This document shows, in pieces, positions 4,346-39,042 of a DNA stretch of 64,000 nucleotides (positions are counted from its first letter, which is position 1; each line of letters starts with the position of its first letter). The notes under the pieces were generated by a model, which was given only the letters and a program-made list of their open reading frames with translations, made no database searches and was not told where the DNA came from. This stretch comes from a virus (lineage: Duplodnaviria; Heunggongvirae; Uroviricota; Caudoviricetes), in the IMG/VR virus record IMGVR_UViG_3300034072_002212, positions 30,417-94,416 of that record; one strand, 5' to 3'. Made by a program: the position numbers and the translations under genes.

Positions 4346-5602
4346 TTACTCATTCACCGCCTTGGGGTCAAAAACGACCAGCGGCTCACTCTTTCCTTCG
4401 ATGACATCCTTGGTCACACGTACGGTAGTCGCTCCCTGCTCCTTGAGGTCAGGAAGTTCATACTGGACCTTGATCAGACGCTTCTCAATCACGCTGCGGA
4501 GACCGCGGGCGCCTGTCTTACGGGTGATGGCATCCTTGGCAACTGCGCGAAGAGCTTCTTCGTCAAACTCCAGTGTGACGTTCTCCATCTGGAACATCTT
4601 CTGGAACTGCTTGACGAGGCTGTTCTTGGGCTCGGTGAGAACCGTAACCAGCTGAGTTTCGTCGAGTTCTTCCAAGTGCGTGATGACCGGGAGACGACCA
4701 ACCAGCTCAGGAATCAGACCGAACTTGGTGAGATCTTCAGGCTCAACAGTGGCAAGAAGCTTGCTGTTGTCCTTCTTCTCAGCTTCGCTCATCACACTGG
4801 CACCAAAGCCCATGCTGCCCTTGCCCTTGTTCTGACGCTTTGCGATGATCTCGTCCAGACCAACGAATGCGCCACCAACAATGAACAGGATGTTCTTGGT
4901 ATTGACCACAGCCATCTCCGCGTTGGGATGCTTGCGGTTACCAGTGACTGGGACGCGGACTTCGCTACCCTCAATGATCTTCAGCAGAGCCTGCTGAACA
5001 CCTTCACCCGAGACGTCACGGGAAATGCTCGCCGAGTCGCCGCGCTTGGCCTTCTTATCTACCTCGTCGAGGTAGATGATACCACGCTCTGCCTTGGCAA
5101 CATCATTGTCGCAGACCTGCAGGAGGCGCGTGATGATGGTCTCCACGTCATCGCCCACATAACCCGCCTCAGTGAGGCTCGTAGCGTCAGCGATGGTGAA
5201 GGGAACGTCCAGCAGCTTTGCGATGCTGCGGGCCATCAGGGTCTTACCGGAGCCCGTAGGGCCCAGCAGGAGGATGTTGGACTTCTCGAGCTCAACATCA
5301 TCGACAACCGGATTGGCGAGACGCTTATAGTGATTGTGGACGGCCACACTCATGACCATCTTGGCTGCGTCCTGACCAATAACATACTGATCCAGGAACT
5401 CACGAATCTGTCGTGGGCTGGGAATACCACCATCCTTGAGAGACATCTTGGTCTCTGCGTTGGTGTCTTCCTTGAGAATGTCCGCGCAAAGCTGGACGCA
5501 ATCGTTACAGATGAAAACATCTGGACCGGCGATCAATTTCTGGACTGCTTCCTGTGGCTTTCCGCAGAAGCTGCAGGTCAGATTTTTCTTCTTGTCACTC
5601 AT
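4346..5602 (-). CDS. clpX: ATP-dependent Clp protease ATP-binding subunit ClpX
   Basis: N-terminal C4 zinc finger (CSFCGK...CNDCV), Walker A GPTGSGKT and 418 aa length are all typical of ClpX. Confidence 0.9.
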
Positions 5603-20581: not shown

Positions 20582-20865
20582 GCAAAGGTCAGCTTGAACA
20601 GAGCCGCAAGGTCTGCGCGATCCTTGGGAAAGAAGAACGTTGTGATGTCCGGCTCGTCTGAACTGTTGCTCGACAACACAGTGAGACCGTGGCGCTTGTA
20701 GAAGTCCTCAATCTCGGGACCTGCGACCCACTGGAAAGTGTCCTCCCCAGTGGATCGCTTCGTGAAGTGCGCCTTGCCCTTGATGTCTACACCCATGGAC
20801 TCAGCTTGCTTCTGTTTGATGCTCTCCCAGAGAGCTTCATAGGCCGAATGGCGAGGATCGGTCAT
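20578..20865 (-). CDS. FKLTWGG-family small protein
   Basis: W-box DTFQWVAGP. C-terminus FFPKDRADLAALFKLTFA. ATG overlaps the cca stop (TAATG). Confidence 0.5.
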   Translation of the reverse strand: MTDPRHSAYEALWESIKQKQAESMGVDIKGKAHFTKRSTGEDTFQWVAGPEIEDFYKRHGLTVLSSNSSDEPDITTFFFPKDRADLAALFKLTFA

Positions 20866-21998
20866 TACTCGATCTCCAGCAGTTCTTCCTTGGTCTTCGT
20901 GAAGCGCGAGAACACCCAGGCATTCTCCAGCTTACGCAGACGCTGCCCCATAGCCGGCCCCGGCTTCATCCCCGAAGCCAGCAGGTCCTTCCCCGTTACC
21001 GGGAACGTCGGGACCACAAAGTTGCGGGCGTATTCAGCCAGCATCGGTTCCCCGGCGATCTCCAGCATGGACACGACATGATCCAGAGGGAACTTGTCGC
21101 GGGTCAGGTAGATCTCGACCTTCTCCTCGGTCCAGTTCACGCACCGGTTGCGGATCAGGTTGCGGACCTTGGCCTCTTCGGCCGAGCTCAGCTTCCAGAA
21201 CTGGAAGAACTTTTCCTCGTCGGTACTGGCCACCAGCGTCGACAGTGCCGCGACCGCATCATCCGAACGCGCCAGCTCAACAGGGTTGAACCGGAAGACT
21301 CCCAGCGAACGGTTGACGCGCGTCTTGAACATCGCGTCGACCACCCGAACCCGAGCCGGCATCGAGGGATCCAGCAGCTTTGACATTTCCAGCCAGAACC
21401 GCTCGACCGACACGACGTTCAGCTTGTCCAGGGTCTCGCCCACGCTGAACAGGTCCAGCGTGTCGTCGTCCATGGTCGCATCGAAGCGCGCCGCAAAGCG
21501 GAAGTAGCGCAGGATACGCAGGTAGTCCTCCTGGATTCGCAGCTCTGCGATCCCGACGAAACGGACGACCTTGTTCTTCAGGTCATCGCGTCCGCCAAAG
21601 TAATCGTAGACGTTGCCCTCGAAGTCCATCGACATTGCGTTGATGGTCAGGTCGCGCCGCTCTGCGTCCAGCTCGAAGGAGCGGGTGAACTCCACGGTCG
21701 CATGACGCCCGTCGGTCTCTGCGTCGATCCGCAGCGTGGTGACCTCGAACGGCTCCTTGTTGACCACGATGGTCGCCGTGCCGTGTGCGATGCCGGTTTC
21801 GATGAAGCCGAACTTGTTGGCCGTTGCGATCTCGCGCATCTCTTCCGGCGTTGCGTCGGTGCAGAAGTCCACGTCCTTGGGGACCACGCCCAGGATCGCG
21901 TCACGGACACAGCCACCCACGAAGCGGATCTCGAAGCCGGCGGCCTTGAAGGCATCGCCCAGCTTGCGCGTTTCCGTGGTCATCAGCTTGTCCAGCAC
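20865..21998 (-). CDS. cca: tRNA nucleotidyltransferase (CCA-adding enzyme) / poly(A) polymerase family
   Basis: Head-domain motifs GGCVRDAILG...DVDF and 377 aa length. Confidence 0.8.
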   Translation of the reverse strand: MLDKLMTTETRKLGDAFKAAGFEIRFVGGCVRDAILGVVPKDVDFCTDATPEEMREIATANKFGFIETGIAHGTATIVVNKEPFEVTTLRIDAETDGRHATVEFTRSFELDAERRDLTINAMSMDFEGNVYDYFGGRDDLKNKVVRFVGIAELRIQEDYLRILRYFRFAARFDATMDDDTLDLFSVGETLDKLNVVSVERFWLEMSKLLDPSMPARVRVVDAMFKTRVNRSLGVFRFNPVELARSDDAVAALSTLVASTDEEKFFQFWKLSSAEEAKVRNLIRNRCVNWTEEKVEIYLTRDKFPLDHVVSMLEIAGEPMLAEYARNFVVPTFPVTGKDLLASGMKPGPAMGQRLRKLENAWVFSRFTKTKEELLEIE

Positions 21999-27017: not shown

Positions 27018-27150
27018 AAACGATCCTTATCCTGTGTTCTGGACAGGAACGTCTATGGCTAATCCTAAACAGGATGTCAATGCCAGAGTGTCAGAATATT
27101 TGACACAAGAATGGGGAGAGGTTGCCCTCTCCCCATTCTCATTAGAAAGC

Positions 27151-27555: not shown

Positions 27556-27582
27556 GGATGTTCTCCTAACTAGGGGTTTAGC

Positions 27583-27590
27583 CTATTTAG
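27583..27590 (-). promoter_or_regulatory. Late-promoter-like CTAAATAG motif
   Basis: 22 nt upstream of the ribosome-binding site of gene 27151..27555. Confidence 0.4.
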
Positions 27591-27613
27591 CGGATCTTGG
27601 GAAGAATTAACTG

Positions 27614-28057
27614 TTAGGGGATCGCCAGACGCAGAAACATCGCCCGTTTGGGCGCCTTGGAAAGCGGTTCGTCAATCATAGTGCCAATCTGCTCCAGCAG
27701 ACCAGGAATGCCTTCCATGAGACTAGGTTGCTTGCTCAGAAGATCCATAGCGTTTTGGCGAAGATCAAACCAGTAGTTGGCACCTGGCTTGCTATATTCA
27801 CCTGGGCCGACTTTCAGGGCATCAACATACGCCACGAAGTAGAACACCATCTTCTCTTGCTTGTGAAGCAAGCAAAGGTCTTTGAGCGTCTGGCCCAAGC
27901 GAGTGCAGCTACGGGTTAGTCTTCCCCGTTCATAGGGAGTGACCTGATTACAGTCCACGAATTCATTTTGCGTGGCATCTTTATGACTGCGGGAGACGTT
28001 GCGGACCACCCGTAGATGCTTGATCACATCCTTGTAGAGGTCCGCTACATCGCTCAC
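27614..28057 (-). CDS. Hypothetical protein (147 aa)
   Basis: ORF only. Confidence 0.45.
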   Translation of the reverse strand: MSDVADLYKDVIKHLRVVRNVSRSHKDATQNEFVDCNQVTPYERGRLTRSCTRLGQTLKDLCLLHKQEKMVFYFVAYVDALKVGPGEYSKPGANYWFDLRQNAMDLLSKQPSLMEGIPGLLEQIGTMIDEPLSKAPKRAMFLRLAIP

Positions 28058-28620
28058 GCGGTGGGCAACCCGTCCGGGCCGATGCCGATGATCTCACCGC
28101 CCACAAACTTGACCCGGCCTAGCTTGTCCGTGCCAGCTTGTGCCCAGCGCATCCACCAGATGTCCTCACGAACTTGCGTGACAATTTCACCTAGCCAGTT
28201 GGTGCCCTGCCAGGTGTTGCGGTCCTGGGCCAGGGGATCGTTGGACGCGAGGCCAATACCCCAGATCTTGTCCCACGGGCTTGCTTCGACCAGCGTGGTG
28301 CCTCGGGTACCCATCAGCCATTTCATCGCCTCGTGGTTCTGCGTGAACTTGGCAAAGTTGGCGCGGTAGACATACACCTTGGCATTGGCTTCCCAGATCG
28401 CCTTGTCGAAGTTCTGAACCGTGCGACCGGCGGCTTTCTGAATCTTGGGATTGTCGGTCCCCATGATGATTGCCAGCGCGGCCTGGTCGTCGAACAGGAT
28501 AGCCTTCTGAGCCATCATATACTGCTCGGCGCAGTTATACTTCACCCCGTCGAGAATGAACTCGCTGGGAGCCCACTGGCTTGCCCAGCCGCCATAGAAG
28601 AACGTGAACTGCTCAGCCAT
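28054..28620 (-). CDS. NADAR domain protein (YbiA-like, DUF1768)
   Basis: FFYGGWASQW...AEQYMMAQKA...FAKFTQNHEAMKWLMGTRGTTLVEASPWDKIWGIG aligns along the length of E. coli YbiA (FYS...SEHYFQAQKF...LVEHTENDAYWGDG). Confidence 0.7.
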   Translation of the reverse strand: MAEQFTFFYGGWASQWAPSEFILDGVKYNCAEQYMMAQKAILFDDQAALAIIMGTDNPKIQKAAGRTVQNFDKAIWEANAKVYVYRANFAKFTQNHEAMKWLMGTRGTTLVEASPWDKIWGIGLASNDPLAQDRNTWQGTNWLGEIVTQVREDIWWMRWAQAGTDKLGRVKFVGGEIIGIGPDGLPTA

Positions 28621-29095
28621 TGGGGCACCATCCCTTGCGCGCGCCGCCCACGTAGGGTCGTGCGTAGCTTTGCATGATCAGGTCCTGCGCGAGGTTCCGA
28701 CCGTTGACGTAGACGTCTGCGTCCACGCGCCCGCCATACTTGTCCCATTTGAGATTGGTCAGGGTGACCTTGTTACCAGCCAGCCTGATCATGCGGGTTG
28801 TGTAGAGCTTGGCACCGGCAGCGTTGCGCTTCTCGAACTCGCACTTGCCGCGCATCTCAGGGGTGTCCACTCCACGCACCCGAACGCCAATGCGGCTCAA
28901 CTCGGGCGGCAGGCCATCCATGCGGATGTAGAAGGTGTCTCCATCATAGATATCCACTACATCGTAGGTATAGGAACGAGAAGTCTGGGCTTGTGCCTCA
29001 TAGTGGCAAGCCCCGAGGCTTAGGGCCGCTGCGGCCAGGAGAGTGGATAGAATCTTCATGTCCATATCGCTATAGGATAGGTGACCGGTTGTCAA
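28613..29095 (-). CDS. Secreted staphylococcal-nuclease (thermonuclease) family lipoprotein
   Basis: Lipobox LSLGAC. DGDTFYI...VRVRGVDTPE...DKYGGRVDADVYVNGRNLAQDL matches SNase catalytic motifs. Confidence 0.7.
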   Translation of the reverse strand: MTTGHLSYSDMDMKILSTLLAAAALSLGACHYEAQAQTSRSYTYDVVDIYDGDTFYIRMDGLPPELSRIGVRVRGVDTPEMRGKCEFEKRNAAGAKLYTTRMIRLAGNKVTLTNLKWDKYGGRVDADVYVNGRNLAQDLIMQSYARPYVGGARKGWCPNG

Positions 29096-29137
29096 CCAGT
29101 CATGGAAAAGGCCCCGGTTTCCCGAGGCCTTTCCAGT

Positions 29138-30343
29138 TTAGCGAGCTGCCAGCTGAGCCTGCCGGTTGGCTGCGCTGAGCAGCGTTTCCTTGAGCTTCTG
29201 CTCGGCGCCCTGGAGCGCCACTTCGGCCGCAGCGCGCTTGGCCTTGCCCTGCTCCGCGAGGTCGATGCTCTCGTTGATCGTCGAGATCAGGTATTCGTTG
29301 GCCTCGACCGCCGCCTCGACGTCGAAGATACCACGCTCCATTTCCGTCCGGGTGATCCGGTTGGTCTCGTTGATCTGCTTCGCGCTGGCGACCAGCAGTT
29401 CGTTGGTGAAGTCGGTCGCGGCCTTGCTGGCCTTGCCGGCTTCCGCCGCGCGCCATGCGGCGATCTGAACCGCCATCGTGCGCTTCCAGAGGGGAACGGC
29501 CGTCAGGATCTGCGTCTGGATCTTCTCGGCCATGCCCTTGTCGTTGGCCTGGACGATGCGGATGCTGGGCAGCGCCTGGATGGTCACGTTGCGGGTCAGC
29601 AGCAGGTCAGCGCGCTTGCGCTCCAGCGAATCGCGCGCTTCGATCATGTCGCGCACTTCCTGGGTGTCGGCCATGTCCTGCGTCTCGTTGGCCTTTGCCT
29701 GGAGCCGCGGGATCTCGACGGTGTTGACCTCGTTGAGCAGCCACTCGACCGCCGCGATCTGCTCGTCGAGCGAATCCAGCAGGCCCAGCGTGGCCTCGTA
29801 TTGCTTGTCCAGCGCAACGATGTCCTTGAGCATCTGAACGCGATGACCCTCGAGCACGTTGGTCGACTTGATGATCTGCGCTTCGACCGTCTGATACTTG
29901 TCCAGGAACTTCTGGAGAACCGACGCGCCGCCGAACAGCTTCTTCAGGAAGCCAGGCTTCTTGCCCGCTGCCAGCTCACCAAAGTCCAGACCCTTCATGT
30001 CGCGCACCATCAGATTCAGCGCATCGCCGGCCGGACCCGTGTCCTTGGTGCGGACTCCCTGAAGCATCTGCTCCGAGACCTGAGTGGTCGCCTTCTGAGC
30101 TTCGACGCCGAAGGTGATGATCGACTGGCTGTCCTTGAGGTTGATCTTGCTGGCGAGCTCCTTGGCGCGCTCCGGCGAGATCTTGCGCGGCGCGCGTCCG
30201 GCGGCATTGTTGAGCGAGACGATTTCCTGCGAGCCGATCTCCGGCACGATCAGGGCATTGTCCGCCTGTGGGGTCGGGAGGAGTTCGCCGGTCAGAGACG
30301 GGGTTGCCGTCGCCGTGCCGACCTTGGTAGGATCAGTCGCCAT
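29138..30343 (-). CDS. TelA-like (toxic anion resistance / KlaB family) protein
   Basis: 401 aa, helical throughout, with a TelA-like organisation. An XpaC-like gene is adjacent, as in the Bacillus yaaN–xpaC operon. Confidence 0.55.
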   Translation of the reverse strand: MATDPTKVGTATATPSLTGELLPTPQADNALIVPEIGSQEIVSLNNAAGRAPRKISPERAKELASKINLKDSQSIITFGVEAQKATTQVSEQMLQGVRTKDTGPAGDALNLMVRDMKGLDFGELAAGKKPGFLKKLFGGASVLQKFLDKYQTVEAQIIKSTNVLEGHRVQMLKDIVALDKQYEATLGLLDSLDEQIAAVEWLLNEVNTVEIPRLQAKANETQDMADTQEVRDMIEARDSLERKRADLLLTRNVTIQALPSIRIVQANDKGMAEKIQTQILTAVPLWKRTMAVQIAAWRAAEAGKASKAATDFTNELLVASAKQINETNRITRTEMERGIFDVEAAVEANEYLISTINESIDLAEQGKAKRAAAEVALQGAEQKLKETLLSAANRQAQLAAR

Positions 30344-30348
30344 AGTGT

Positions 30349-31008
30349 TCAGATTCCCTCGTTCTGGAGACGGTTGTTCATGACCGTCATGTTCACGTCA
30401 AAATCCATGACGTCGTTGGACAGAAGCTTGTCGAGCAGCTTCTGAAAGTTGATCTCGATGGTGTCGAGCATTTCGTCGAACTTGGCCATCTGCTTCTGCG
30501 CCTCGAGGCTGCGCGAACCAGTGCGGCTCAAATGCGCGTAACCCTTGACCAGCGTGATAGTCTCGTCCAGGTAGCTGTTGAGCCAGCTCTGTGCAAGGAC
30601 CACGTCCTTGGGGTCGACGTGGAAGTCTTCGATGATCTTGCGACCGATGGCATCAATGTGCTTGATGCGCCGAACCGTGTTGGGGCTCTTGATCTGGGCG
30701 GCTTCCATGAGGATGCGGTCCAGCTTGTCGCTGCCCATCTTGATTGCTTCGACGACCAGCTTGGTGTCAACACCCGAGGTGCCGGCCGCGATGTCGTCGA
30801 TATGCTTGTGAAGAGCGCGGATGTCGTCAGCCGTTACGGGCTTGCGACCAGGCCAGAAATACCAGATGCCCGATCCTGTGAGTAGCGCCAGCGGCGCGCT
30901 GATCAGGATATCACCGATGAAGCCCGTGGGCAGAGCGGCCATGCCGCCGATGAAAACACAAGCGGCTCCTCCCAGCGCAGCCGCCTTACTCACTAGACTA
31001 TTTGCCAT
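30349..31008 (-). CDS. XpaC-like membrane protein (tentative)
   Basis: N-terminal TM segments followed by a helical cytoplasmic domain. Positioned next to TelA as in the Bacillus yaaN–xpaC pair. Confidence 0.35.
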   Translation of the reverse strand: MANSLVSKAAALGGAACVFIGGMAALPTGFIGDILISAPLALLTGSGIWYFWPGRKPVTADDIRALHKHIDDIAAGTSGVDTKLVVEAIKMGSDKLDRILMEAAQIKSPNTVRRIKHIDAIGRKIIEDFHVDPKDVVLAQSWLNSYLDETITLVKGYAHLSRTGSRSLEAQKQMAKFDEMLDTIEINFQKLLDKLLSNDVMDFDVNMTVMNNRLQNEGI

Positions 31009-31129
31009 TGCTACCTCGTTGTTACAGAGCTCTGTATAGTCCTAATTGGACATCTGTCTACCACTCATTTGTTCAGAAAGGAAGGGCCACGGTTTCCCGC
31101 AGCCCTTCCCCTACGAAGCCCAGTGAGGG

Positions 31130-32869
31130 TTATTCAGCGTCGGGATGAATCCCTGCCAGCCGCTGAAGTTCCTCACGCTCGTCGGCCGGGAGAGGCTCGT
31201 CGCGCACCCGGCGGGGCTTGGGGGCCGGAACCGCCTTGGCCACCGGCGCATCACCGTTGCCGGTGATCGGAGCCGAAAGACCATCGACCACACCCGACAT
31301 GCCCTTGCTCAGGTCAATGCCAAGTTCCTTGGCCAGCTCGTCCACGAAGGGAGCCTGGAGCCGGTAGCCCAGCAGAGCGTCAGTCATCTGGCCGGGCAGA
31401 CCGTTACCGCCGTTTCCCGAGGTCTCGCCCTCCTCACCGCCGAAGGTGCGACCGCCACCGATGCCGCCGTTCATGTGAACAACGCGGAAGCTGTCAATCT
31501 TCTCGATGGGCTTGCCCATCTGCTCGAGGATCTCAGGCAGCTTGTCGATGAGCTTGAGGCGGATCTGCAGCGCAGCCTGCTCAGGGCTCATGAGGTTCGC
31601 AGCTTCGTTCAGCGCCCGCTGACCCTCGGCCTCAACCTCGTAACGACGTGCGTCTGCCTCGACTAGGCGCTCCTTGGCCTTGGCGCTGGCGTCAGCTGCC
31701 GCGAGCTCAGCTTCCGCACGGATGCGGATACCAGCGGCCTCTTCCTGTGCCTTGGTCTCGGCCGCGATGACCGCAACCTTCTGGTCACGCTGGGCGCGCG
31801 CTTCGGCCTCAACGGTCTTCACCGCTTCAGCAGCCGCGACCGCAGTCGCGCGGGCTTCGTCAGCCTTGGCACGAGCAGTCGACTCTTCCTCGGACTTCTG
31901 GGCGACCGCAATGCGCGATGCCTGTGCCGCAATCTCGAGAGCCTGTGCGGCCTCGGTCTCTGCGACCTGAATCCGGCGCTTCTGCTCGACACGCGCTGCC
32001 TCGGTGGCCTGGTTGGCCTCGATTTCAGCGATGTCAGCTTCGCGAGTGCGCTCAGCGCGGATCTTCGCAAGACTAGCAGCCTGCTCGGCGCGCTGGGTCT
32101 CGACCTGACGCTCCTGCTCCAGGGTTGCGAATTCGTCCTGCTGCTTGATTTCGAGCGAACGCTTGTTCGCCTCGAAGTTCTTCTGCTCGATGGCGACGCG
32201 GTTGTCGGCCTCGATTTCGTTGCGCTCCTTGCGGCGGGTCTCGGTCACGCTCGTGAGCTTAGCCAGACCTTCAGCGTCGAACGCATTGTTGGGGTTGAAG
32301 TGCTCGACCGACGTCTGGTCCAGACCGGTCAGCGAGACCGATTCCAGTTCCAGACCGTTCTTCTTCAGGTCTTCAGCCGCTGTGGTCTGGACCTGCTTCA
32401 CGAAGTCGGCCCGCTTCTCATGAAGGTCCTGCATGTCCATGCCCGCCGCAACAGCGCGCAGAACGTCGACGAACTTGCCTTCAATCAGCTCAGCGAGCTG
32501 CTGGGGGTTGGTCGTCCGCTTACCCAGGGTCTGCGCCGCTGCCGCGATGCTTTCCAGATCCGGCGACACACGAACGTAGAACTCAGCCTTCACGTCAACG
32601 CGCAGGCGGTCCTTGGTGATCAGCGAGTCCTTGGCCTTGCGATCGACGGTGAGGCGCAGGGTCTGCATATTGATGTCCACAGTCTCGTGGAACACCGGCA
32701 GAATCAGAGCACCGCCGTCCTTGACGACCTTCTGACCGCCCATACCCGTGCGGACGAATGCCATTTCCTTGGACGCTCGCTTATAAAGCTGCGTCATGAA
32801 GAAGACAATCACACCAAGGACGACAACCGCCCCCAGGATGATCGCCCCAATAAAGGTGAGATTATCCAA
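31130..32869 (-). CDS. Flotillin / band-7 (SPFH) protein, YqiK-like
   Basis: N-terminal TM, SPFH core (ILPVFHETVDINMQTLRLTVD...) and a very long A/E/K/R coiled coil. 579 aa. Confidence 0.75.
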   Translation of the reverse strand: MDNLTFIGAIILGAVVVLGVIVFFMTQLYKRASKEMAFVRTGMGGQKVVKDGGALILPVFHETVDINMQTLRLTVDRKAKDSLITKDRLRVDVKAEFYVRVSPDLESIAAAAQTLGKRTTNPQQLAELIEGKFVDVLRAVAAGMDMQDLHEKRADFVKQVQTTAAEDLKKNGLELESVSLTGLDQTSVEHFNPNNAFDAEGLAKLTSVTETRRKERNEIEADNRVAIEQKNFEANKRSLEIKQQDEFATLEQERQVETQRAEQAASLAKIRAERTREADIAEIEANQATEAARVEQKRRIQVAETEAAQALEIAAQASRIAVAQKSEEESTARAKADEARATAVAAAEAVKTVEAEARAQRDQKVAVIAAETKAQEEAAGIRIRAEAELAAADASAKAKERLVEADARRYEVEAEGQRALNEAANLMSPEQAALQIRLKLIDKLPEILEQMGKPIEKIDSFRVVHMNGGIGGGRTFGGEEGETSGNGGNGLPGQMTDALLGYRLQAPFVDELAKELGIDLSKGMSGVVDGLSAPITGNGDAPVAKAVPAPKPRRVRDEPLPADEREELQRLAGIHPDAE

Positions 32870-32891: not shown

Positions 32892-33551
32892 TTAGATCTT
32901 GCGAACGATGAATGCGTAAGCGCGTTCTCGGTGTGGACCGATTAGCACCACCTGTGAACCATTTGCAATACTTTCTTCTCCCTCCCCACAAACCATTACT
33001 GTGTGATCGGTTCCATGCGCGTCAGTAAAGCGCGCCATGCCAAAGTCCTCGCGGGCAATTGGACCAACAGTCACAACGCCGGCAGAACCCGTGAGACTCT
33101 CGAGGCTAACGGCATTCGACTCATCCTTGGGAAGGACGGGAGCGAGCCCCAGAGAACACAAACGAACGGTTGGAAGGGTGAGAGCGAGCACGATGGGCGC
33201 ACCAAAGAGCGCAGGCGCTAGGGAGCCCGTCAGTCCATCATAGATCCACTGAGCACTGTAGCCCAGGAGAGCAAAGCTGCCGCAGAATAGCGTGAGGAAG
33301 ATTGTGCTGGGCACATGGCCGGGATTGGCCCAACCGATGATACCAGCATGGCCGATTTCCAGATGATCTGGAATGCCGTTGCCGTTGAGGTCTAGGCTAA
33401 AATCAGCATGGCCATGGAGGGCATCAAAGCCAGCGCCCAGCGCCATTCCAATGATGCCGAAGAGGAGAAGGGCGAGAACCACACATCCTGAAATTAGGTA
33501 TGGGAGGTTGGGCCCGGCTGTAAGGAAATCCATGAGGCTCATAAGCCCCAC
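32892..33551 (-). CDS. NfeD/YqiJ-like membrane protein, partner of the flotillin gene
   Basis: Multiple TM helices plus a C-terminal OB-fold-like segment (GSAGVVTVGPIAR...ARFTDAHGTDHTVMV...GSQVVLIG). Lies immediately upstream of the flotillin gene. Confidence 0.55.
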   Translation of the reverse strand: MGLMSLMDFLTAGPNLPYLISGCVVLALLLFGIIGMALGAGFDALHGHADFSLDLNGNGIPDHLEIGHAGIIGWANPGHVPSTIFLTLFCGSFALLGYSAQWIYDGLTGSLAPALFGAPIVLALTLPTVRLCSLGLAPVLPKDESNAVSLESLTGSAGVVTVGPIAREDFGMARFTDAHGTDHTVMVCGEGEESIANGSQVVLIGPHRERAYAFIVRKI

Positions 33552-34103: not shown

Positions 34104-34178
34104 TGGTGCTGTTGGGGAGGATTGAACTCCCGACTTCCTCATTACCAATGAGGTACTCTACCACTGAGTTACAACAGC
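34104..34178 (-). tRNA. tRNA-Thr (anticodon GGU), 75 nt with encoded CCA
   Basis: Folded by hand: acceptor GCTGTTG/CAACAGC, D-arm ACTC-AGTGGTA-GAGT, anticodon arm CCTCA-TTGGTAA-TGAGG, T-arm GGGAG-TTCAATC-CTCCC, discriminator A, CCA. Confidence 0.75.
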
Positions 34179-35676: not shown

Positions 35677-37428
35677 CTAGCCATTCTTGGATGCGAGTTC
35701 GTTCACAACCATGTGATTGAGGTCAGAGATCCTGTAGGGCTTGCCTAGCACCTTGATCTTATGACTGCGGTCTCGCTTGAGCTCCCTAAGGGCCACTTCA
35801 GCATGACCTGTGGTGAAGATCACGGGTAAATCCGGACGGATATTGCTGGCAGCTTTGGCAAGCTGGAAACCATCAATGCCATTGGGCATCACAACGTCGG
35901 TGAACAATAGGTCAATGGGAATGTCGAGATTCTGAATGATCTCCAGTGCGCTTTTGCCATCTTGTGCGCTCAGGACATTGTAGCCCATTTCCATCAAAGC
36001 CTGCGCTGCGAGCTCTCTGACGCCGGGCTCGTCATCTACCACAAGAATGCTGGCCTTGGTAGCGTCGTAGTTGAAGTCTTCCTCGTCCCGCGTTTCTTCG
36101 ACCGTTTCTCCGGCTGTGTAGGGGAAGAGCATCTCTACGGTTGTTCCCTTGCCCAACACGCTGTCAATGAAGACCTTGCCGTTGCTCTGCTGACAGAAGC
36201 CATAGACCATGGAGAGACCAAGCCCACTACCCTTGCCCACGTCCTTGGTCGTGTAGAATGGTTCAAAGGCCCGTTCTTTGGTTTCCTGAGTCATGCCTTC
36301 GCCAGTATCACTGACGCTGACACTCACAAAGCGCGTGTCGTCAATGGAACGGTTTTGTGTCTTAATACAGATCCGACCACCATTGGGCATTGCGTCTCTG
36401 GCGTTGATGCCAAGGTTGAGAATAGCACTCTCGAGCTGTGATTTGTCGCTCAAGCAAAGCCAGACGTCTTCCTGGAGATCAATCTCAACAGGAATACTAA
36501 CACCGACCGCCCGCTGGACCATTTCCTGGACGCCAACGACGACCTCGTTGACGTTCAGTCGCTCGGGATGGAGTCGCGATTTACGAGAGAACGCAAGCAA
36601 TTGGCTCGTGAGCTTTTCTGCCTTGAGGGCGGCCTCGATCGCCATGGAAGTCTGACGTTCAATACGCTTTGCCACGGAGTTGTCTGGCAAGTTGGCCAGA
36701 CTCATCTTCGAGAGCTCGAGGTTCCCGATGATCACTGTGAGCATGTTGTTGAAATCGTGCGCGATACCACCGGTCAACTGCCCAACGCTCTCCATCTTTT
36801 GTGCCTGGCGGAGAGCATCCTGTGTTTTCTGCCGCTCTTCAATCTCTTGAAGGAGGCGCTCATTTGCTTCCTCGAGCTCTTGAGTGCGTTCGCGGACTTT
36901 GGTCTCTAGCAGTTCGTGAGCGTGGATAGATTCTTCCTGAGCCATTTTGAGCTCATGAATTATTGAAGCAACACCCAGCCATTTTACGAGGTTTTCGTTA
37001 TCATCCTTGATGGCTCGAGTGGTTGCACGGAACCAGCGATATTCTCCGTCATGTCGACGAATGCGAAACTCGGCTTCGTATGCTAACCCCTTGACATAAT
37101 GCTCTTCCATTGCCAGACGAATTACTGCTATATCGTCGGGATGAATGCATGTCTTCCAAAGATAATCATCATCAAGGGAGTATTTTACTCCCGTGAATTC
37201 AAACCAAAAATTATTGAGATAGGTGAGATTTCCCTGATCGTCTCGGGTCCAGATAATTGTCGGCGCAAGATCTGTGAGCATCTTGATATTGATGTCAGAT
37301 TTGATCGCCTTATCCACAAAACCCTCATCGCCCACTCCGCAGACAAGAAGACCTTGGGGTAATGGCCTACCTCCGGTCTGTCGCTTTGGCATCGAGAACC
37401 CCTTTAGAAGCGTAACGAATAGAACCAA
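35677..37428 (-). CDS. Hybrid sensor histidine kinase (PAS – HisKA – HATPase – receiver)
   Basis: H-box IAHDFNNMLTVI; ATPase DTGEGM...GSGLGLSMV; C-terminal receiver ILVVDDEP...DLLFTDVVMP. Uses a TAG stop. Confidence 0.8.
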   Translation of the reverse strand: MVLFVTLLKGFSMPKRQTGGRPLPQGLLVCGVGDEGFVDKAIKSDINIKMLTDLAPTIIWTRDDQGNLTYLNNFWFEFTGVKYSLDDDYLWKTCIHPDDIAVIRLAMEEHYVKGLAYEAEFRIRRHDGEYRWFRATTRAIKDDNENLVKWLGVASIIHELKMAQEESIHAHELLETKVRERTQELEEANERLLQEIEERQKTQDALRQAQKMESVGQLTGGIAHDFNNMLTVIIGNLELSKMSLANLPDNSVAKRIERQTSMAIEAALKAEKLTSQLLAFSRKSRLHPERLNVNEVVVGVQEMVQRAVGVSIPVEIDLQEDVWLCLSDKSQLESAILNLGINARDAMPNGGRICIKTQNRSIDDTRFVSVSVSDTGEGMTQETKERAFEPFYTTKDVGKGSGLGLSMVYGFCQQSNGKVFIDSVLGKGTTVEMLFPYTAGETVEETRDEEDFNYDATKASILVVDDEPGVRELAAQALMEMGYNVLSAQDGKSALEIIQNLDIPIDLLFTDVVMPNGIDGFQLAKAASNIRPDLPVIFTTGHAEVALRELKRDRSHKIKVLGKPYRISDLNHMVVNELASKNG

Positions 37429-37564: not shown

Positions 37565-37768
37565 TAAAGAAAGCTAAAAGGCCCGTCCTGTTCCGCGGTG
37601 GAGCCCATACCGGTTTGGCAAACCCTAAGGGTTAAGCCGCAACTGCCATTGCTGGCTCGTTGTCGTTGACATTTCTGTCGTTGGCCTTTTCGGATCCGAA
37701 GATCCCAGGGAACCACCCCTCGTTGTCTCTCGCAGCCGTTCGCGCACACGTCGATCCTGGTTCGGCCC
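37565..37768 (-). ncRNA. ssrA: tmRNA coding piece (5' acceptor strand, tag reading frame, post-stop helix)
   Basis: 5' end GGGGCCGAACCAGGAUCGACG at 37768. Resume codon GCC at 37684-37682. Tag stop UAA at 37633-37631, followed by the AACCC-UUA-GGGUU hairpin. Confidence 0.6.
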
Positions 37769-37815
37769 CTTGCTTCAGGATTGCTCCCGATAAGGTTTCC
37801 AGTATTGCCACCTGG

Positions 37816-37880
37816 TTGGTGGAGCCGGCGGGTACTGCCCCCGCGTCCGCTGATTGCTATTGAGCTTTGGTCATCAACAA
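37816..37880 (-). ncRNA. ssrA: tmRNA acceptor piece (T-arm + 3' acceptor strand + CCA)
   Basis: The 3' end ...GCGGG-GGCAGUA-CCCGC-CGGCUCC-A-CCA lies at 37816. The last 12 nt (CCGGCUCCACCA) match the E. coli tmRNA 3' terminus. Confidence 0.6.
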
Positions 37881-37887
37881 CCCCGCC

Positions 37888-37916
37888 TTTATAGCGCGCT
37901 CGTAACCAAATGTCAA
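37888..37916 (-). promoter_or_regulatory. Sigma70-like promoter TTGACA-N17-TATAAA(GG) driving the tmRNA locus
   Basis: -35 at 37916-37911 and -10 at 37893-37888 on the minus strand, immediately after the PAAR stop codon. Confidence 0.5.
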
Positions 37917-37919: not shown

Positions 37920-38195
37920 CTATCCTACAAAAACGTCGCTGCTGCCTTGTGCAACCTTGCTACCACAGGCCACGGGGTCAGATAACCTGCCCTGTCCGCG
38001 TCCATTGACGAAGACTGTGGATGATCCCCTAGCCAAAACACTTGGATGACCACTATGTGGTGCCCATTTATCGCCTTGCCTGTGAGCCGGCTTGCCGTTG
38101 ATAAAGACGTCAGGGCTTCCCTGAACGTTTGGACGTGGAGGAGCGCCGGGATGGCCCGTGCATTTGTCTCCCATACGGGCCGCTGGCTTACCCAC
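37920..38195 (-). CDS. PAAR-repeat protein (spike-tip, T4 gp5.4-like)
   Basis: N-terminus (M)GKPAARMGDKC...HPG...VFINGKPAHRQGD...VFVNG are PAAR repeats. GTG start overlaps the upstream stop. Confidence 0.75.
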   Translation of the reverse strand: MGKPAARMGDKCTGHPGAPPRPNVQGSPDVFINGKPAHRQGDKWAPHSGHPSVLARGSSTVFVNGRGQGRLSDPVACGSKVAQGSSDVFVG

Positions 38196-39042
38196 CTAGC
38201 ACCGCCGCCGCAGCACCAGTTGCCACGCTACCTAGGAGACCACGCAGGCAAGGATCCTGTGGCAGATTAGCCATTAGGTCAGCCAAACCCTGACGGATCT
38301 GTGCCAGCATTGCCTTGGCAAACTTCATGACTTCTTCTTTGGCCTTTGCGATCATCTGTGCGATCGCAGCTTTTGCCTGAGCAATGCCCGCCTTGATCTG
38401 GTCGATGATAGGGCCAATGGCTTCGTTGACCGCATTCTTAACCTGCGAGATCATATCAGAAATCTTGGCCCTGATCTGATTTAGCAAAGCTTTTCCAGAA
38501 TCCATGATGCTGCCAAGGAAGCCATCCAGACCAAGGCAGGGATTGCTGAGCAAGTTCATCACCGTAGCGAGCGCCATTGCTCCCTGGGCGATACCTGCTA
38601 GGCTTGGTAGGTTGTTGGTCAGGCGATCCGTGTGATCTTCAATCTGATCCAGATCTTCGTTGATGTCCTGACAGTCAGCATCGAACTCAGGCTTATAGGC
38701 CGCCCAAGTGCCATTGTCGCTGAAACGACCAATGAGGTAGATGCTGAAGTCCTGAAGATCTGTGCGAATCGGAGAGATCAAACATTCAGTGGGATTGACA
38801 ATCACTCCCTGGTAAGGATTGAACAGGGAGAGATTATTGAAAGAGTCAACGTGGGCCTGAAGGCTGACGTCAACTTCCCCTGGAGTCACAAGCGGAGGAC
38901 GACGCGGAGTGGTCCTCGTGTCCACAATGGGCGTGCTCTCCATAATCTCCTGGAGCATCAAGACCTTGGGATCCAGAGGTGGATTGTAGAGGCTGCTCTC
39001 TAGCGCCTCGGTGTTCACCAGCTTCGACATGGATTGCATCAC
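38188..39042 (-). CDS. Hypothetical virion-associated protein (284 aa)
   Basis: ORF directly upstream of PAAR. Helical A/I/Q-rich C-terminal half. Confidence 0.45.
   Translation of the reverse strand: MMQSMSKLVNTEALESSLYNPPLDPKVLMLQEIMESTPIVDTRTTPRRPPLVTPGEVDVSLQAHVDSFNNLSLFNPYQGVIVNPTECLISPIRTDLQDFSIYLIGRFSDNGTWAAYKPEFDADCQDINEDLDQIEDHTDRLTNNLPSLAGIAQGAMALATVMNLLSNPCLGLDGFLGSIMDSGKALLNQIRAKISDMISQVKNAVNEAIGPIIDQIKAGIAQAKAAIAQMIAKAKEEVMKFAKAMLAQIRQGLADLMANLPQDPCLRGLLGSVATGAAAAVLGG

What the first reader, a model, noticed from the sequence alone, without database searches (positions are those of the whole stretch)
37565..37916. Candidate two-piece (permuted) tmRNA hidden in an intergenic gap
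The 490-bp gap between the PAAR gene and the hybrid histidine kinase has no credible ORF. On the minus strand it reads as a permuted ssrA. The acceptor piece ends ...GCGGG-GGCAGUA-CCCGC-CGGCUCC-A-CCA, and its last 12 nt match the E. coli tmRNA 3' end. After a 47-nt spacer the coding piece starts GGGGCCGAACCAGGAUCGACG, matching the conserved tmRNA 5' end. The acceptor stem GGGGCCG/CGGCUCC pairs perfectly and includes the G3·U70 wobble pair needed for charging with alanine. A resume codon GCC opens the frame AAC GAC AGA AAU GUC AAC GAC AAC GAG CCA GCA AUG GCA GUU GCG GCU UAA. That encodes (A)ANDRNVNDNEPAMAVAA, which ends like alphaproteobacterial SsrA tags (...AVAA). The stop is followed by an AACCC-UUA-GGGUU hairpin. 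A near-consensus TTGACA-N17-TATAAA promoter sits directly upstream. A permuted phage tmRNA would be unusual, and clpX is on the same genome. Two-piece tmRNAs occur in alphaproteobacteria, some betaproteobacteria and cyanobacteria, so this also points to the host clade.
Basis: partly seen in the sequence, partly recalled or inferred. Interest (0 to 1): 0.92.

Follow-up and report, generated by a model that had tools for sequence, protein, structure and literature searches.

The report
Two-piece tmRNA gene in jumbo phage
The gap really does hold a complete, circularly permuted (two-piece) ribosome-rescue RNA gene carried by a large phage, but phages are already known to carry such genes, so it is a solid new example with some unusual details and not a new kind of thing.

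Summary
**Confirmed.** On the minus strand, 37920-37577 matches both Rfam permuted-tmRNA models above their gathering scores:
- RF04321: 84.7 bits (cut-off 47).
- RF01849: 84.3 bits (cut-off 50).

All expected parts are present:
- a promoter-like element;
- a 65-nt acceptor piece ending in ACCA;
- a 47-nt spacer;
- a ~193-nt coding piece;
- a 7-bp acceptor stem with G3·U70;
- the T-arm, P2, PK1, a tag frame, P5 and PK2.

The window is a jumbo-phage fragment related to Sinorhizobium phage Phosso and Agrobacterium phage Atu_ph07. Six related phage loci carry a permuted tmRNA in the same genomic neighbourhood, with compensatory changes in the helices.

- Phage two-piece tmRNAs are not rare. There is published work on them, and at least 113 IMG/VR contigs carry the alpha-type arrangement.
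- The resume codon is probably GUC (37670-37668), not GCC. GCC lies inside PK1 stem 2. The tag is then (A)VNDNEPAMAVAA.

**New details**
- The tRNA-like domain is 100% identical to Sphingomonas/Sphingobium ssrA, while the rest follows the phage lineage. This predicts a Sphingomonad host or donor.
- PK1 loop 3 carries an inserted UUCG hairpin.
- ARAGORN misses the gene at default settings.

**Verdict:** a new member of a known kind, of moderate to low interest.

The parts
37911..37916 (-). -35 hexamer TTGACA of the tmRNA promoter
   Evidence: Read directly from the sequence. (G)TTGACA/TTGACT is conserved at the same position in L147, L138, L145, Phosso (L002), L140 and L141. It aligns with the promoter portion of the RF01849 model.
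37888..37893 (-). -10 hexamer TATAAA, 17 nt after the -35 hexamer
   Evidence: Read directly. It lacks the conserved final T, so the consensus scanner does not report it. Relatives have TATAAG, TATACA or TAAATA here.
37817..37881 (-). Acceptor piece, 65 nt. Contains the 5' strands of P2 (37881-37876, 37866-37863, 37850-37848), the T-arm (stems 37844-37840 and 37832-37828, loop GGCAGUA 37839-37833), the acceptor 3' strand CGGCUCC (37827-37821), discriminator A (37820) and an encoded CCA (37819-37817).
   Evidence: Rfam alignments and helix checks. The 36 nt CAGCGGAC...ACCA are identical to Sphingomonas/Sphingobium ssrA.
37770..37816 (-). Intervening segment, 47 nt. Expected to be removed when the precursor is processed.
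   Evidence: The length is ordinary for the family (range 4-410 nt across 115 genes). The sequence resembles no other spacer among the 148 fetched loci.
37577..37769 (-). Coding piece, about 193 nt. Contains the acceptor 5' strand GGGGCCG (37769-37763), the D-loop-like AACCAGGAUCGAC, the P2 3' strands (37750-37748, 37737-37734, 37727-22), PK1, the tag frame, P5 and PK2.
   Evidence: Rfam RF01849 match 37920-37577 and helix checks. The first 25 nt are identical to Sphingobium ssrA.
37682..37719 (-). Pseudoknot PK1. Stem 1 is GGGG (37719-16) with CCCU (37710-07). Stem 2 is UGGUU (37715-11) with GGCCA (37686-82). Loop 3 holds an inserted hairpin GGAUC-UUCG-GAUCC (37705-37692).
   Evidence: Stem 2 matches the family's UGACC/GGUCA. 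L145 has UGGCU/GGCCA with a canonical short loop 3. In L147 the inserted hairpin covaries (GAUCC/GGAUU). The distance from the 5' end to the resume codon is 99 nt, second-longest of 108 (median 82).
37683..37685 (-). It lies inside PK1 stem 2 and heads the upstream copy of a 15-nt in-frame duplication.
37632..37670 (-). Tag reading frame from the probable resume codon GUC (37670-37668) to the UAA stop (37634-37632). It encodes VNDNEPAMAVAA.
   Evidence: GUC aligns with the family's GCN resume codon (102 of 108 sequences have GCN). ARAGORN at a relaxed threshold gives this tag and gives VNDN... tags for L138, L145 and L147 at default settings.
37621..37633 (-). P5 hairpin AACCC-UUA-GGGUU, overlapping the stop codon
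   Evidence: L147 has the same stem. L138 and L145 have different stems (GCCGC/GCGGC and CGCUGCC/GGUAGCG) at the same place.
37579..37612 (-). 3' pseudoknot PK2. Stem 1 is CGGU (37612-09) with ACCG (37599-96). Stem 2 is GGGCUC (37606-01) with GGGCCU (37584-79). A U run follows.
   Evidence: Across 108 viral tmRNAs, 80% of stem-2 cells pair, with many pair types, against 43-50% for slid partners.
4346..5602 (-). Phage ClpX homologue (zinc finger plus AAA+ domain). A possible unfoldase for proteins tagged ...AVAA; this link is inferred, not shown.
   Evidence: Pfam zf-C4_ClpX E = 1e-18 and AAA_2 E = 2e-31. No ClpP or SmpB was detected in the window with E. coli queries.
20865..21998 (-). CCA-adding enzyme (tRNA nucleotidyltransferase). 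It could repair the CCA ends of tRNAs and of the acceptor piece; this is inferred.
   Evidence: Pfam PolyA_pol E = 5e-35 and tRNA_NucTran2_2.

Best explanation
This is an intact, expressed-looking ssrA gene of the alphaproteobacterial circularly permuted (two-piece) type. It is carried by a jumbo phage related to Phosso, AP-J-162 and Atu_ph07.

**Proposed mechanism**
1. *Transcription.* It starts at a sigma-70-like promoter (TTGACA-N17-TATAAA) and begins near G37881.
2. *Processing.* Host tRNA-processing enzymes act on the ~305-nt precursor. RNase P cuts 5' of G37769, and 3' trimming stops at the encoded CCA at 37817. The 47-nt spacer is removed.
3. *Assembly.* The 65-nt acceptor RNA and the ~193-nt coding RNA stay together through the acceptor stem (7 bp, G3·U70) and P2 (about 13 bp).
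4. *Charging and delivery.* Host AlaRS charges the RNA with alanine. Host SmpB and EF-Tu deliver it to stalled ribosomes.
5. *Tagging.* Translation resumes 11 nt after PK1, most likely at GUC. The nascent chain receives A-VNDNEPAMAVAA. Its ...AVAA end should send it to ClpXP-type proteases, possibly including the phage's own ClpX.

**Evolution**
- The tRNA-like domain is identical to that of Sphingomonas/Sphingobium, while the body of the RNA is of phage lineage.
- This suggests that the part contacting host AlaRS, SmpB and RNase P has been matched to a Sphingomonad host, probably by recombination.
- The likely benefit to the phage is extra ribosome-rescue capacity during infection.

**What is shown and what is inferred**
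- Shown: family membership, all structural parts, conservation and covariation in related phages, and identity of the tRNA-like domain to Sphingomonad ssrA.
- Inferred: expression, processing, charging, tagging, the ClpX link and the benefit to the phage.
For: - **Family match:** Rfam hits above gathering score for RF04321 and RF01849, both full-length.
- **Gene order:** acceptor piece, 47-nt spacer, coding piece.
- **Acceptor stem:** 7 bp with G3·U70, kept through four different stem sequences in seven phage-clade RNAs. The T-arm is kept through three variants.
- **Other helices:** P2, PK1, P5 and PK2 all form in the window and are kept by compensatory changes in L147, L138 and L145. PK2 stem 2 pairs in 80% of cells across 108 viral tmRNAs, against 43-50% for slid controls.
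- **Tag:** an open tag frame ending in AVAA, as in 5 of 108 family members; most of the rest end in ALAA.
- **Phage context:**
  - PAAR, DUF7217, ribonucleotide reductase, T4-type topoisomerase II, ClpX and a DnaB-like helicase.
  - DUF7217 homologues in the phage collection occur only in jumbo phages.
- **Conserved position:**
  - A permuted tmRNA lies in the same genomic neighbourhood in Phosso, L138, L140, L141 (a 480-kb contig), L145 and L147.
  - In five of these it follows DUF7217-PAAR; L147 lacks that gene pair.
  - The flanking genes (histidine kinase, DUF7217-PAAR) come and go.
- **Promoter:** the -35 hexamer is conserved in all seven.
- **tRNA-like domain:**
  - The exact 32-mer occurs in 15 genome representatives. 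All that are classified below phylum are Sphingomonadales.
  - Identity by segment is 32/32 and 20/20 to Sphingomonads, against 27/32 and 18/20 to the nearest phage relative.
  - All other segments are closer to the phage relative.
- **Precedent:** PMC9004378, PMC11915505, PMC11242549 and PMC7162821.
Against: - There are no expression or processing data.
- ARAGORN does not call the gene at default settings.
- The -10 hexamer lacks the conserved final T.
- No intrinsic terminator follows the gene, so read-through into the kinase gene is possible.
- The codon at the canonical resume position is GUC, whereas 102 of 108 family members have GCN.
- PK1 loop 3 carries an unusual ~17-20-nt insertion.
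- One short P2 segment (AAU/GUG) has a non-standard pair.
- No SmpB or ClpP was found in these 64 kb, so function depends on host factors.
- The host is not known independently. Other signals say only 'Alphaproteobacteria', and phage Melnitz shows that a phage tmRNA type need not match its host (PMC9004378).
Confidence: 0.86

Rival explanations
1. The gene is real, but translation resumes at GCC (37685-37683). The tag would then be the longer (A)ANDRNVNDNEPAMAVAA. The region is a 15-nt in-frame tandem duplication of the resume segment. On this reading the upstream copy keeps the canonical alanine codon and is the active one.
For: - GCC AAC GAC is the canonical A-N-D start.
- It is 100% conserved in the window, L138, L145 and L147, whereas the 6 nt that follow vary.
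- It is in frame with no intervening stop in all four.
- The two 15-nt units are 11/15 identical (read).
- An unrelated viral tmRNA, L020, with GUC at the resume position also has an in-frame GCA AAC 12 nt upstream.
- 102 of 108 family members use GCN.
Against: - GCC lies inside GGCCA, which pairs with UGGUU as PK1 stem 2 and aligns with the family's GGUCA.
- L145 has a canonical PK1 with a short loop 3 ending in this GGCCA. A resume codon there would sit inside the pseudoknot with no linker.
- GUC lies 11 nt after PK1, which is the family spacing.
- In three of the four relatives GUC follows the family's UAAC(G/U) motif.
- ARAGORN starts the tag at GUC.
Confidence: 0.25
2. The RNA is a decoy or a decaying relic. 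It mimics the host tRNA-like domain and soaks up host SmpB and AlaRS, or it is simply no longer functional. Either way it would not carry out productive trans-translation. A CDS-less mycobacteriophage DS6A form has been reported to inhibit endogenous tmRNA.
For: - The tRNA-like domain is a perfect copy of the host type, while the mRNA-like part is atypical: a GUC resume codon and an insertion in PK1 loop 3.
- ARAGORN scores it below its default threshold.
- There is precedent for an inhibitory phage tmRNA-like RNA (mentioned in PMC11915505).
Against: - The tag frame is intact and ends in a canonical ...AVAA followed by a stop codon.
- PK1, P5 and PK2 are kept by compensatory changes in four relatives whose tags differ but all stay open and end in (L/V)AA.
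- A relic would not keep these features, and a decoy would not need them.
Confidence: 0.07
3. The gene is not phage-borne. On this reading the window would be bacterial chromosome, or the host ssrA at a prophage or island boundary. Alternatively, the blocks identical to the host would act as an attachment site for integration into the host ssrA.
For: - tmRNA genes are frequent integration sites for islands and prophages (PMC4383910).
- 36 nt and 25 nt are identical to Sphingomonad ssrA.
- The window contains bacterial-looking genes: histidine kinase, TelA, flotillin, ClpX.
Against: - The gene is complete and is not a fragment.
- Outside the tRNA-like domain it is far from Sphingomonad ssrA and close to the RNAs of phage contigs.
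- Gene order matches Phosso (469 kb), a 480-kb metagenomic contig and IMG/VR viral contigs.
- DUF7217 and PAAR relatives in the phage collection occur only in jumbo phages.
- None of the ~30 larger ORFs I scanned against Pfam or PHROGs is an integrase.
- The window's G+C is about 52-54%. From general knowledge, this is well below typical Sphingomonad chromosomes.
Confidence: 0.03

Closest known systems
Alphaproteobacterial two-piece tmRNA (Rfam RF01849 alpha_tmRNA; general permuted model RF04321). The type example is Caulobacter ssrA (Keiler, Shapiro and Williams 2000, as cited in PMC9004378).
   Same: - Same permuted gene order (acceptor piece, intervening segment, coding piece).
- Alpha-type T-loop GGCNGUA, acceptor stem with G3·U70 and an encoded CCA.
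- P2 holds the two pieces together.
- PK1 precedes an NDN... tag that ends in (L/V)AA.
- The 3' pseudoknot has the AACAG(A/G)A loop.
- The promoter is in the same position as in the model.
   Different: - It is carried by a phage.
- Distal P2 is shorter than the model consensus.
- There is one 3' pseudoknot, where Sphingomonad ssrA has two tandem copies.
- The codon at the resume position is GUC.
- PK1 loop 3 holds an inserted UUCG hairpin.
Chromosomal ssrA of Sphingomonas and Sphingobium
   Same: The tRNA-like domain is identical: 36 nt on the acceptor side and the first 25 nt of the coding piece.
   Different: - Distal P2, PK1, tag (hosts: ANDNEALAIAA or ANDNEALALAA), spacer and 3' domain are all diverged. 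Local-alignment identities are 13-23 of 29-33 nt for the P2 strands and 15-20 of 39 nt for PK1.
- The host genes are called by ARAGORN at default settings.
tmRNAs of related jumbo phages: Sinorhizobium phage AP-J-162 (annotated, PMC11242549), Sinorhizobium phage Phosso (present but unannotated), and metagenomic contigs L138, L140, L141, L145 and L147
   Same: - Same genomic neighbourhood; in five of the six sequenced loci the gene follows DUF7217-PAAR (L147 lacks that pair).
- Same -35 TTGACA.
- Shared acceptor-piece motif UGUUGAUNAC...CUCAAUAG.
- Same overall architecture.
   Different: - The tRNA-like domain sequence differs among them (four acceptor-stem variants).
- Spacer length ranges from 47 to 410 nt.
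- Only the window's sub-clade (window, L147, L138, L145) has GUC at the resume position and the duplicated resume segment.
- Only the window and L147 have the stable UUCG hairpin in PK1 loop 3.
Two-piece tmRNAs of marine phages (Melnitz, pelagimyophages, roseophages; Buchholz et al. 2022, PMC9004378)
   Same: They are phage-encoded, alpha-type permuted ssrA genes that sit behind an early-type promoter. The same proposed roles apply: maintaining translation, or tagging proteins for degradation.
   Different: - No glutamine riboswitch or other Rfam element is attached here.
- The phage lineage is different (Atu_ph07-like jumbo phage).
- The tRNA-like domain matches Sphingomonads and not SAR11-like lineages.

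Membership tests
Permuted (two-piece) tmRNA, alphaproteobacterial type | Covariance-model score at or above the curated gathering score | tested here: met
   RF04321 scores 84.7 bits (cut-off 47) and RF01849 scores 84.3 bits (cut-off 50). Both matches are full-length.
Permuted (two-piece) tmRNA, alphaproteobacterial type | Circularly permuted gene order: the 3' half of the tRNA-like domain ending in CCA, then an intervening segment, then the 5' half followed by the mRNA-like part | tested here: met
   Acceptor piece 37881-37817, spacer 37816-37770, coding piece from 37769.
Permuted (two-piece) tmRNA, alphaproteobacterial type | A 7-bp acceptor stem with the G3·U70 alanine identity pair, discriminator A and 3' CCA | tested here: met
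   GGGGCCG/CGGCUCC pairs as ||:||||, followed by ACCA. The G·U pair is kept in all seven phage-clade RNAs despite four different stem sequences.
Permuted (two-piece) tmRNA, alphaproteobacterial type | T-arm with the alpha-type T-loop and a D-loop-like GGAUCGAC motif | tested here: met
   GCGGG-GGCAGUA-CCCGC and AACCAGGAUCGAC.
Permuted (two-piece) tmRNA, alphaproteobacterial type | P2 helix joining the two pieces | tested here: met
   GUUGUU/GACAAC, AGCU/GGCU and GCG/CGU all pair. Relatives show compensatory variants (GUUAU/AUGAC, GCUAU/AUAGC, AACU/GGUU). One extra 3-bp segment has a non-standard pair.
Permuted (two-piece) tmRNA, alphaproteobacterial type | Pseudoknot PK1 a fixed short distance upstream of the resume codon | tested here: met
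   Stem 1 GGGG/CCCU and stem 2 UGGUU/GGCCA, 11 nt before GUC. Loop 3 is unusually long and holds an inserted hairpin.
Permuted (two-piece) tmRNA, alphaproteobacterial type | Tag frame that starts at a GCN resume codon and ends in a hydrophobic ...(L/V)AA followed by a stop | tested here: inconclusive
   The frame, the stop and the ...AVAA end are present. The canonical resume position holds GUC and not GCN, with an in-frame GCC 15 nt upstream. Which codon is used cannot be settled from sequence alone.
Permuted (two-piece) tmRNA, alphaproteobacterial type | Detection by ARAGORN, the heuristic tmRNA finder | tested here: not met
   No call at default settings. It is called at 80% threshold with tag VNDNEPAMAVAA. 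This is a feature of the detection tool and does not define the family. Close relatives L138, L145 and L147 are called at default.
Permuted (two-piece) tmRNA, alphaproteobacterial type | Precursor processed into two base-paired RNAs; charged with alanine; binds SmpB; tags nascent chains | not testable with these tools
   This needs RNA-seq or Northern blots, in-vitro charging and proteomics.
Phage-encoded tmRNA | The gene lies in a phage genome and not in host DNA or at a prophage junction | tested here: met
   - Phage gene content.
- DUF7217 relatives in the phage collection occur only in jumbo phages.
- Synteny with Phosso, a 480-kb contig and IMG/VR contigs.
- The body of the RNA follows the phage lineage.

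The most novel reading that the evidence does not exclude
**tRNA-like domain as a swappable host-compatibility cassette.** In the window's lineage, the ancestral phage-type block seen in L147, L138 and L145 was replaced by a Sphingomonad-type block. That block comprises the acceptor stem, T-arm, D-loop and perhaps the spacer. The phage-specific mRNA-like body was kept. If this is general, the tRNA-like domain of a phage tmRNA could serve as a precise host predictor.

**Phage-specific tag.** The sub-clade's Val-initiated tag (A-VNDN...AVAA), together with the remodelled PK1, would mark rescued proteins differently from the host tag (ANDNEALA(I/L)AA). Such proteins might then be routed to the phage's own ClpX.
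Probability: 0.25. Interest if true: 0.55.

Novelty: new member of a known kind. Interest (0 to 1): 0.3.

Why it matters
- **Annotation.** This is a real RNA gene that default ARAGORN-based phage annotation would miss. The homologous gene in the GenBank record of phage Phosso is also unannotated. Covariance-model scans should therefore be part of jumbo-phage annotation.
- **Host prediction.** The tRNA-like domain is identical only to Sphingomonas/Sphingobium ssrA. This gives a concrete, testable host prediction for an otherwise unplaced phage.
- **Biology.**
  - The gene adds to the evidence that large phages carry their own ribosome-rescue RNA, here alongside ClpX, a CCA-adding enzyme and a tRNA.
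  - It offers a small natural experiment on tmRNA rules: a GUC resume codon, and a hairpin inserted into PK1 loop 3.
- **Limits.** None of this changes the current understanding of tmRNA or of phage biology.

Tried and rejected
- **blastn against the phage collection** (701-nt region): no match. The conserved blocks are too short for BLAST.
- **megablast of 24 kb of the window:** found only a short ribonucleotide reductase segment in cyanophages.
- **Single-sequence DUF7217 search of viral contigs:** found nothing. The alignment-based search found only Atu_ph07 itself.
- **Unconstrained minimum-free-energy folding** of the two pieces together and of the precursor: it reproduced the T-arm and the acceptor stem (cofold only), but not P2 or the pseudoknots. 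I dropped it in favour of comparative analysis.
- **Column-based pair counts on a sequence-only MAFFT alignment:** informative only for PK2 stem 2. They were uninformative for the short PK1, P5 and PK2 stem-1 helices, and I mis-indexed PK2 stem 1. I replaced this with explicit per-sequence helix checks.
- **Promoter scanner:** found no promoter, because the -10 hexamer ends in A.
- **Pattern GGCCAACGACNNNNNNGTCAACGA:** returned three chance matches in GC-rich coding DNA (L144, L146, L148), which I discarded.
- **Independent host signal:** the plasmid collection gave only a general alphaproteobacterial signal.
- **Spacer donor:** a search for the donor of the 47-nt spacer found nothing.
- **Limited by the scan cap:** I could not test whether the tRNA-like domains of Phosso, L138, L145 and L147 match their own hosts.
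- **Not scanned:** the rest of the Atu_ph07 genome. Only 16.7 kb was scanned and held no tmRNA. The literature reports none in that phage (PMC11242549).
Full report
**1.

- TTGACA (37916-37911), 17 nt, then TATAAA (37893-37888).
- An acceptor piece ending GCGGG-GGCAGUA-CCCGC-CGGCUCC-A-CCA at 37817.
- A 47-nt spacer.
- A coding piece starting GGGGCCGAACCAGGAUCGACG at 37769.
- The open frame ending GCA GUU GCG GCU UAA (stop at 37634-37632).
- The AACCC-UUA-GGGUU hairpin.

Rfam's general permuted-tmRNA model (RF04321) matches 37881-37632 at 84.7 bits against a gathering score of 47. The alphaproteobacterial model (RF01849) matches 37920-37577 at 84.3 bits against 50. Both matches are end to end, with E-values of 9e-15 and 2e-21.

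ARAGORN at default settings reports only tRNA-Thr(GGT) at 34104-34178. When its threshold is lowered to 80%, it calls a permuted tmRNA with the tag VNDNEPAMAVAA. The same ARAGORN set-up finds permuted tmRNAs in many other loci. The miss is therefore a false negative for this sequence and does not count against it.

**2. The window is a jumbo-phage fragment**

- The neighbours of the gap are a PAAR protein (37920-38195), a DUF7217 protein (38188-39042) and a hybrid histidine kinase (35677-37428).
- Further out lie glutaredoxin, both ribonucleotide reductase subunits, an Mtd_N-domain protein, ClpX (4346-5602), T4-type topoisomerase II subunits and a CCA-adding enzyme (20865-21998).
- The window also holds an HNH endonuclease, a TelA/flotillin/YqiJ cluster and a DnaB-like helicase.
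- In the phage collection, the DUF7217 protein finds only Agrobacterium phage Atu_ph07 (490 kb) and Sinorhizobium phage Phosso (469 kb).
- Metagenomic relatives include a 480-kb contig.
- L138 has the same gene order as the window: reductase large subunit, small subunit, glutaredoxin, a 171-aa ORF, DUF7217, PAAR, tmRNA.
- No SmpB or ClpP was found in these 64 kb with E. coli queries.

**3. Anatomy**

*Pieces*
- The acceptor piece (37881-37817, 65 nt) starts about 7 nt after the -10 hexamer, so its 5' end may be the transcription start.
- The coding piece runs from 37769 to about 37577.

*Helices that form*

| Helix | Pairing in the window |
|---|---|
| Acceptor stem | GGGGCCG/CGGCUCC (7 bp, G3·U70) |
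| T-arm | GCGGG/CCCGC |
| P2 | GUUGUU/GACAAC, AGCU/GGCU, GCG/CGU |
| PK1 stem 1 | GGGG/CCCU |
| PK1 stem 2 | UGGUU/GGCCA |
| P5 | AACCC/GGGUU |
| PK2 stem 1 | CGGU/ACCG |
| PK2 stem 2 | GGGCUC/GGGCCU |

*Support from compensatory change in related phage RNAs*
- Four different acceptor stems all keep G3·U70.
- There are three T-stem variants.
- P2 outer helix: GUUGU/ACAAC, GUUAU/AUGAC and GCUAU/AUAGC.
- P2 middle helix: AGCU/GGCU and AACU/GGUU.
- PK1 stem 1: GGGG/CCCU and GGGA/UCCC.
- Across 108 unique viral alpha-type tmRNAs, PK2 stem 2 pairs in 80% of cells with many pair types, against 43-50% when the partner is slid by 1-3 columns.

*The atypical feature*
- PK1 loop 3 carries an inserted hairpin, GGAUC-UUCG-GAUCC (37705-37692).
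- The distance from the 5' end to the resume codon is 99 nt, the second-longest of 108 (median 82).
- The hairpin is kept in L147 through compensatory changes (GAUCC-UUCG-GGAUU). It is weak in L138 and absent in L145, where loop 3 has the usual short form.

**4. The tag: GUC is more likely than GCC**

In the alignment of 108 viral tmRNAs, the family resume codon is GCN in 102 sequences, usually after UAAAU. It lines up with GUC at 37670-37668.

That segment aligns with the family's GGUCA and pairs with UGGUU as PK1 stem 2. L145 has a canonical short loop 3, which shows that GGCCA is the pseudoknot strand.

GUC lies 11 nt after PK1, the usual spacing. In three of the four sub-clade members it follows the family's UAAC(G/U) motif. 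ARAGORN starts the tags of L138, L145 and L147 at GUC.

The tags from GUC are:

| RNA | Tag from GUC |
|---|---|
| window | VNDNEPAMAVAA |
| L147 | VNDNSPAMAVAA |
| L138 | VNDNTVVEARLAA |
| L145 | VNDNDVVEALAA |

There is a real complication. The region looks like a 15-nt in-frame tandem duplication (GAAAAGGCCAACGAC then AGAAAUGUCAACGAC, 11/15 identical). GCCAACGAC is perfectly conserved in all four relatives, whereas the next 6 nt vary. An unrelated viral tmRNA with GUC at this position (L020) also has an in-frame GCA AAC upstream.

I put GUC at about 70-75% and GCC at about 25%. The C-terminal degron ...PAMAVAA is the same in either case.

From my own knowledge (not checked here), work on E. 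coli tmRNA indicates that the reading frame is set by upstream sequence and spacing, not by the identity of the resume codon. The same literature indicates that PK1 tolerates replacement by a stable hairpin. Neither oddity therefore argues against function.

**5. Conservation in the phage lineage**

- A permuted tmRNA sits in the same genomic neighbourhood in Phosso (unannotated in PV764938.1), L138, L140, L141, L145 and L147. In all but L147 it lies downstream of DUF7217-PAAR.
- The -35 hexamer is conserved: TTGACA in the window and five relatives, TTGACT in Phosso. All share the acceptor-piece motif UGUUGAUNAC...CUCAAUAG.
- The flanking genes vary. The histidine kinase is present in the window and L138 but absent in L145 and L147, and L147 also lacks DUF7217-PAAR. 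Retention of the RNA gene while its neighbours turn over points to selection on it.
- No tmRNA was found in the 16.7 kb of Atu_ph07 that I scanned. The literature lists none for that phage and one for its relative AP-J-162 (PMC11242549, Table 1).

**6. A chimeric RNA and a host prediction**

The window's exact 32-nt T-arm plus acceptor strand occurs in 15 species representatives out of 185,579. All that are named below phylum are Sphingomonas, Sphingobium or Sphingomonadales. The first 25 nt of the coding piece are also identical to Sphingobium ssrA.

Identity by segment:

| Segment | Sphingomonad ssrA | L147 (nearest phage relative) |
|---|---|---|
| tRNA-like domain, 3' half | 32/32 | 27/32 |
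| tRNA-like domain, 5' half | 19-20/20 | 18/20 |
| P2 5' strand | 18-23/33 | 30/33 |
| PK1 | 15-20/39 | 34/39 |
| Linker and tag | 30-35/50 | 41/50 |
| P5 and PK2 | 29-36/52 | 43/52 |

L147 and L138 share a different tRNA-like domain (GGGCCUG/CAGGUCC; T stem CCGGG/CCCGG). L145 has the same domain apart from one T-loop base. The Sphingomonad-type domain is therefore derived in the window's lineage.

The spacer resembles neither group. The simplest reading is that the tRNA-like block was replaced by recombination with a Sphingomonad-type ssrA. Repeated selection for compatibility with host AlaRS, SmpB and RNase P is the alternative. This is an inference.

Independent host signals say only 'Alphaproteobacteria'. 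Phage Melnitz shows that a phage tmRNA type need not match the current host (PMC9004378).

**7. How it most likely works**

By analogy with bacterial two-piece tmRNA, I expect the following steps:
1. Transcription starts from the sigma-70-like promoter.
2. RNase P cleaves 5' of G37769.
3. The 3' end is trimmed to the encoded CCA at 37817, and the 47-nt spacer is lost.
4. The two RNAs stay paired through the acceptor stem and P2.
5. Host AlaRS charges the RNA through G3·U70.
6. Host SmpB and EF-Tu deliver it to stalled ribosomes.
7. Translation resumes on the tag frame.
8. The ...AVAA end targets the product to ClpXP-type proteases.

The phage's own ClpX and CCA-adding enzyme are plausible partners. 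The likely benefit is more ribosome-rescue capacity while host mRNAs are being degraded, as others have proposed for phage tmRNAs (PMC9004378, PMC7162821). All of these steps are inferred. Sequence, structure and conservation are what has been shown.

**8. Comparison with what is known, and novelty**

- Phage-encoded tmRNAs, including two-piece ones, are established:
  - 402 of 18,146 phage genomes carry a tmRNA, and 53 of the 133 unique sequences are two-piece (PMC9004378).
  - The tmRNA database holds 79 unique phage sequences (PMC11915505).
  - Huge phages carry tmRNA and SmpB (PMC7162821).
  - AP-J-162, a relative of this phage, has an annotated tmRNA (PMC11242549).
At least 113 of them have the complete permuted arrangement, with spacers of 4-410 nt.
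- Cultured phages of Mesorhizobium, Erythrobacter, Ruegeria, Rhodobacter, Caulobacter and Brevundimonas carry the motif, and it is often unannotated.
- The finding is therefore a new member of a known kind. Its distinguishing details are the host-identical tRNA-like domain on a phage-lineage body, GUC at the resume position conserved in a small sub-clade, and a hairpin inserted in PK1 loop 3.

**9. Verdict**

The claimed rarity and the start of the tag need correction.

- Interest: 0.3.
- Most novel reading still open: that the tRNA-like domain is a swappable host-compatibility cassette, and that the tag is tuned for the phage. I give this a probability of about 0.25, and it would be of moderate interest if true.

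Noticed in passing
L002 (Sinorhizobium phage Phosso, PV764938.1) 9532-10221: Phosso carries a permuted tmRNA (113 bits) that is not annotated in its GenBank record. Its 410-nt intervening segment is the longest of 115 alpha-type viral genes examined. L140 has a 268-nt segment. I did not examine what these long segments contain. ARAGORN misses both genes.
   Followed up: partly
window 24000-32000: G+C rises to 0.59-0.62 here, against about 0.52 elsewhere. The block includes TelA (29138-30343) and an SPFH/flotillin protein (31130-32869), and YqiJ follows at 32892-33551. The same TelA-SPFH pair is found in Phosso. At DNA level the block shows only weak similarity to alphaproteobacterial replicons (Paracoccus, Bosea, Shinella).
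   Followed up: partly
window 35677-37428; L138 7438-7689; L145; L147: The hybrid histidine kinase/response regulator just downstream of the tmRNA is present in the window and L138 but absent in L145 and L147. L147 also lacks the DUF7217-PAAR pair. A second multi-PAS protein lies at 54370-56040. Signal-transduction genes in this phage clade appear to be gained and lost readily.
   Followed up: partly
window 4346-5602, 20865-21998, 34104-34178: ClpX, a CCA-adding enzyme and tRNA-Thr(GGT) are encoded in the same 64 kb as the tmRNA. L147 also has tRNA-Thr(GGT) downstream of its tmRNA. Together they look like a small translation and proteolysis toolkit. No SmpB or ClpP was seen in the window.
   Followed up: partly
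window 37555-37529 (minus strand): A strong hairpin (ACCUUACCGC ... GCGGUUAAGGU, about 10 bp with one bulge) lies between the tmRNA 3' end and the kinase start codon. No U run follows it, and nothing similar occurs in the fetched relatives. It might be a processing or stability element, or an unconventional terminator.
   Followed up: no
L020 (IMGVR_UViG_3300021519_000168), PK1 region of its tmRNA: This unrelated viral alpha-type tmRNA has about three tandem copies of a 21-nt unit (TCGATCGGATTGGGAATTTTC) where PK1 should be. It has the longest distance from 5' end to resume codon (148 nt). It also has GUC at the resume position, with an in-frame GCA AAC 12 nt upstream.
   Followed up: no
L138 5813-6832: In the closest fully syntenic relative, the PAAR domain sits in a 339-aa ORF. 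Its C-terminal part weakly matches a cell-wall hydrolase domain (Hydrolase_2, E = 6e-4). The window's PAAR protein is only 91 aa.
   Followed up: no
L123-L137 (Sphingomonas/Sphingobium ssrA): The bacterial genes have two tandem copies of the 3' pseudoknot module (…ACCGGGCAACAGAA… twice). The phage RNAs of the window/L147 type have one copy, so the phage version is streamlined.
   Followed up: no
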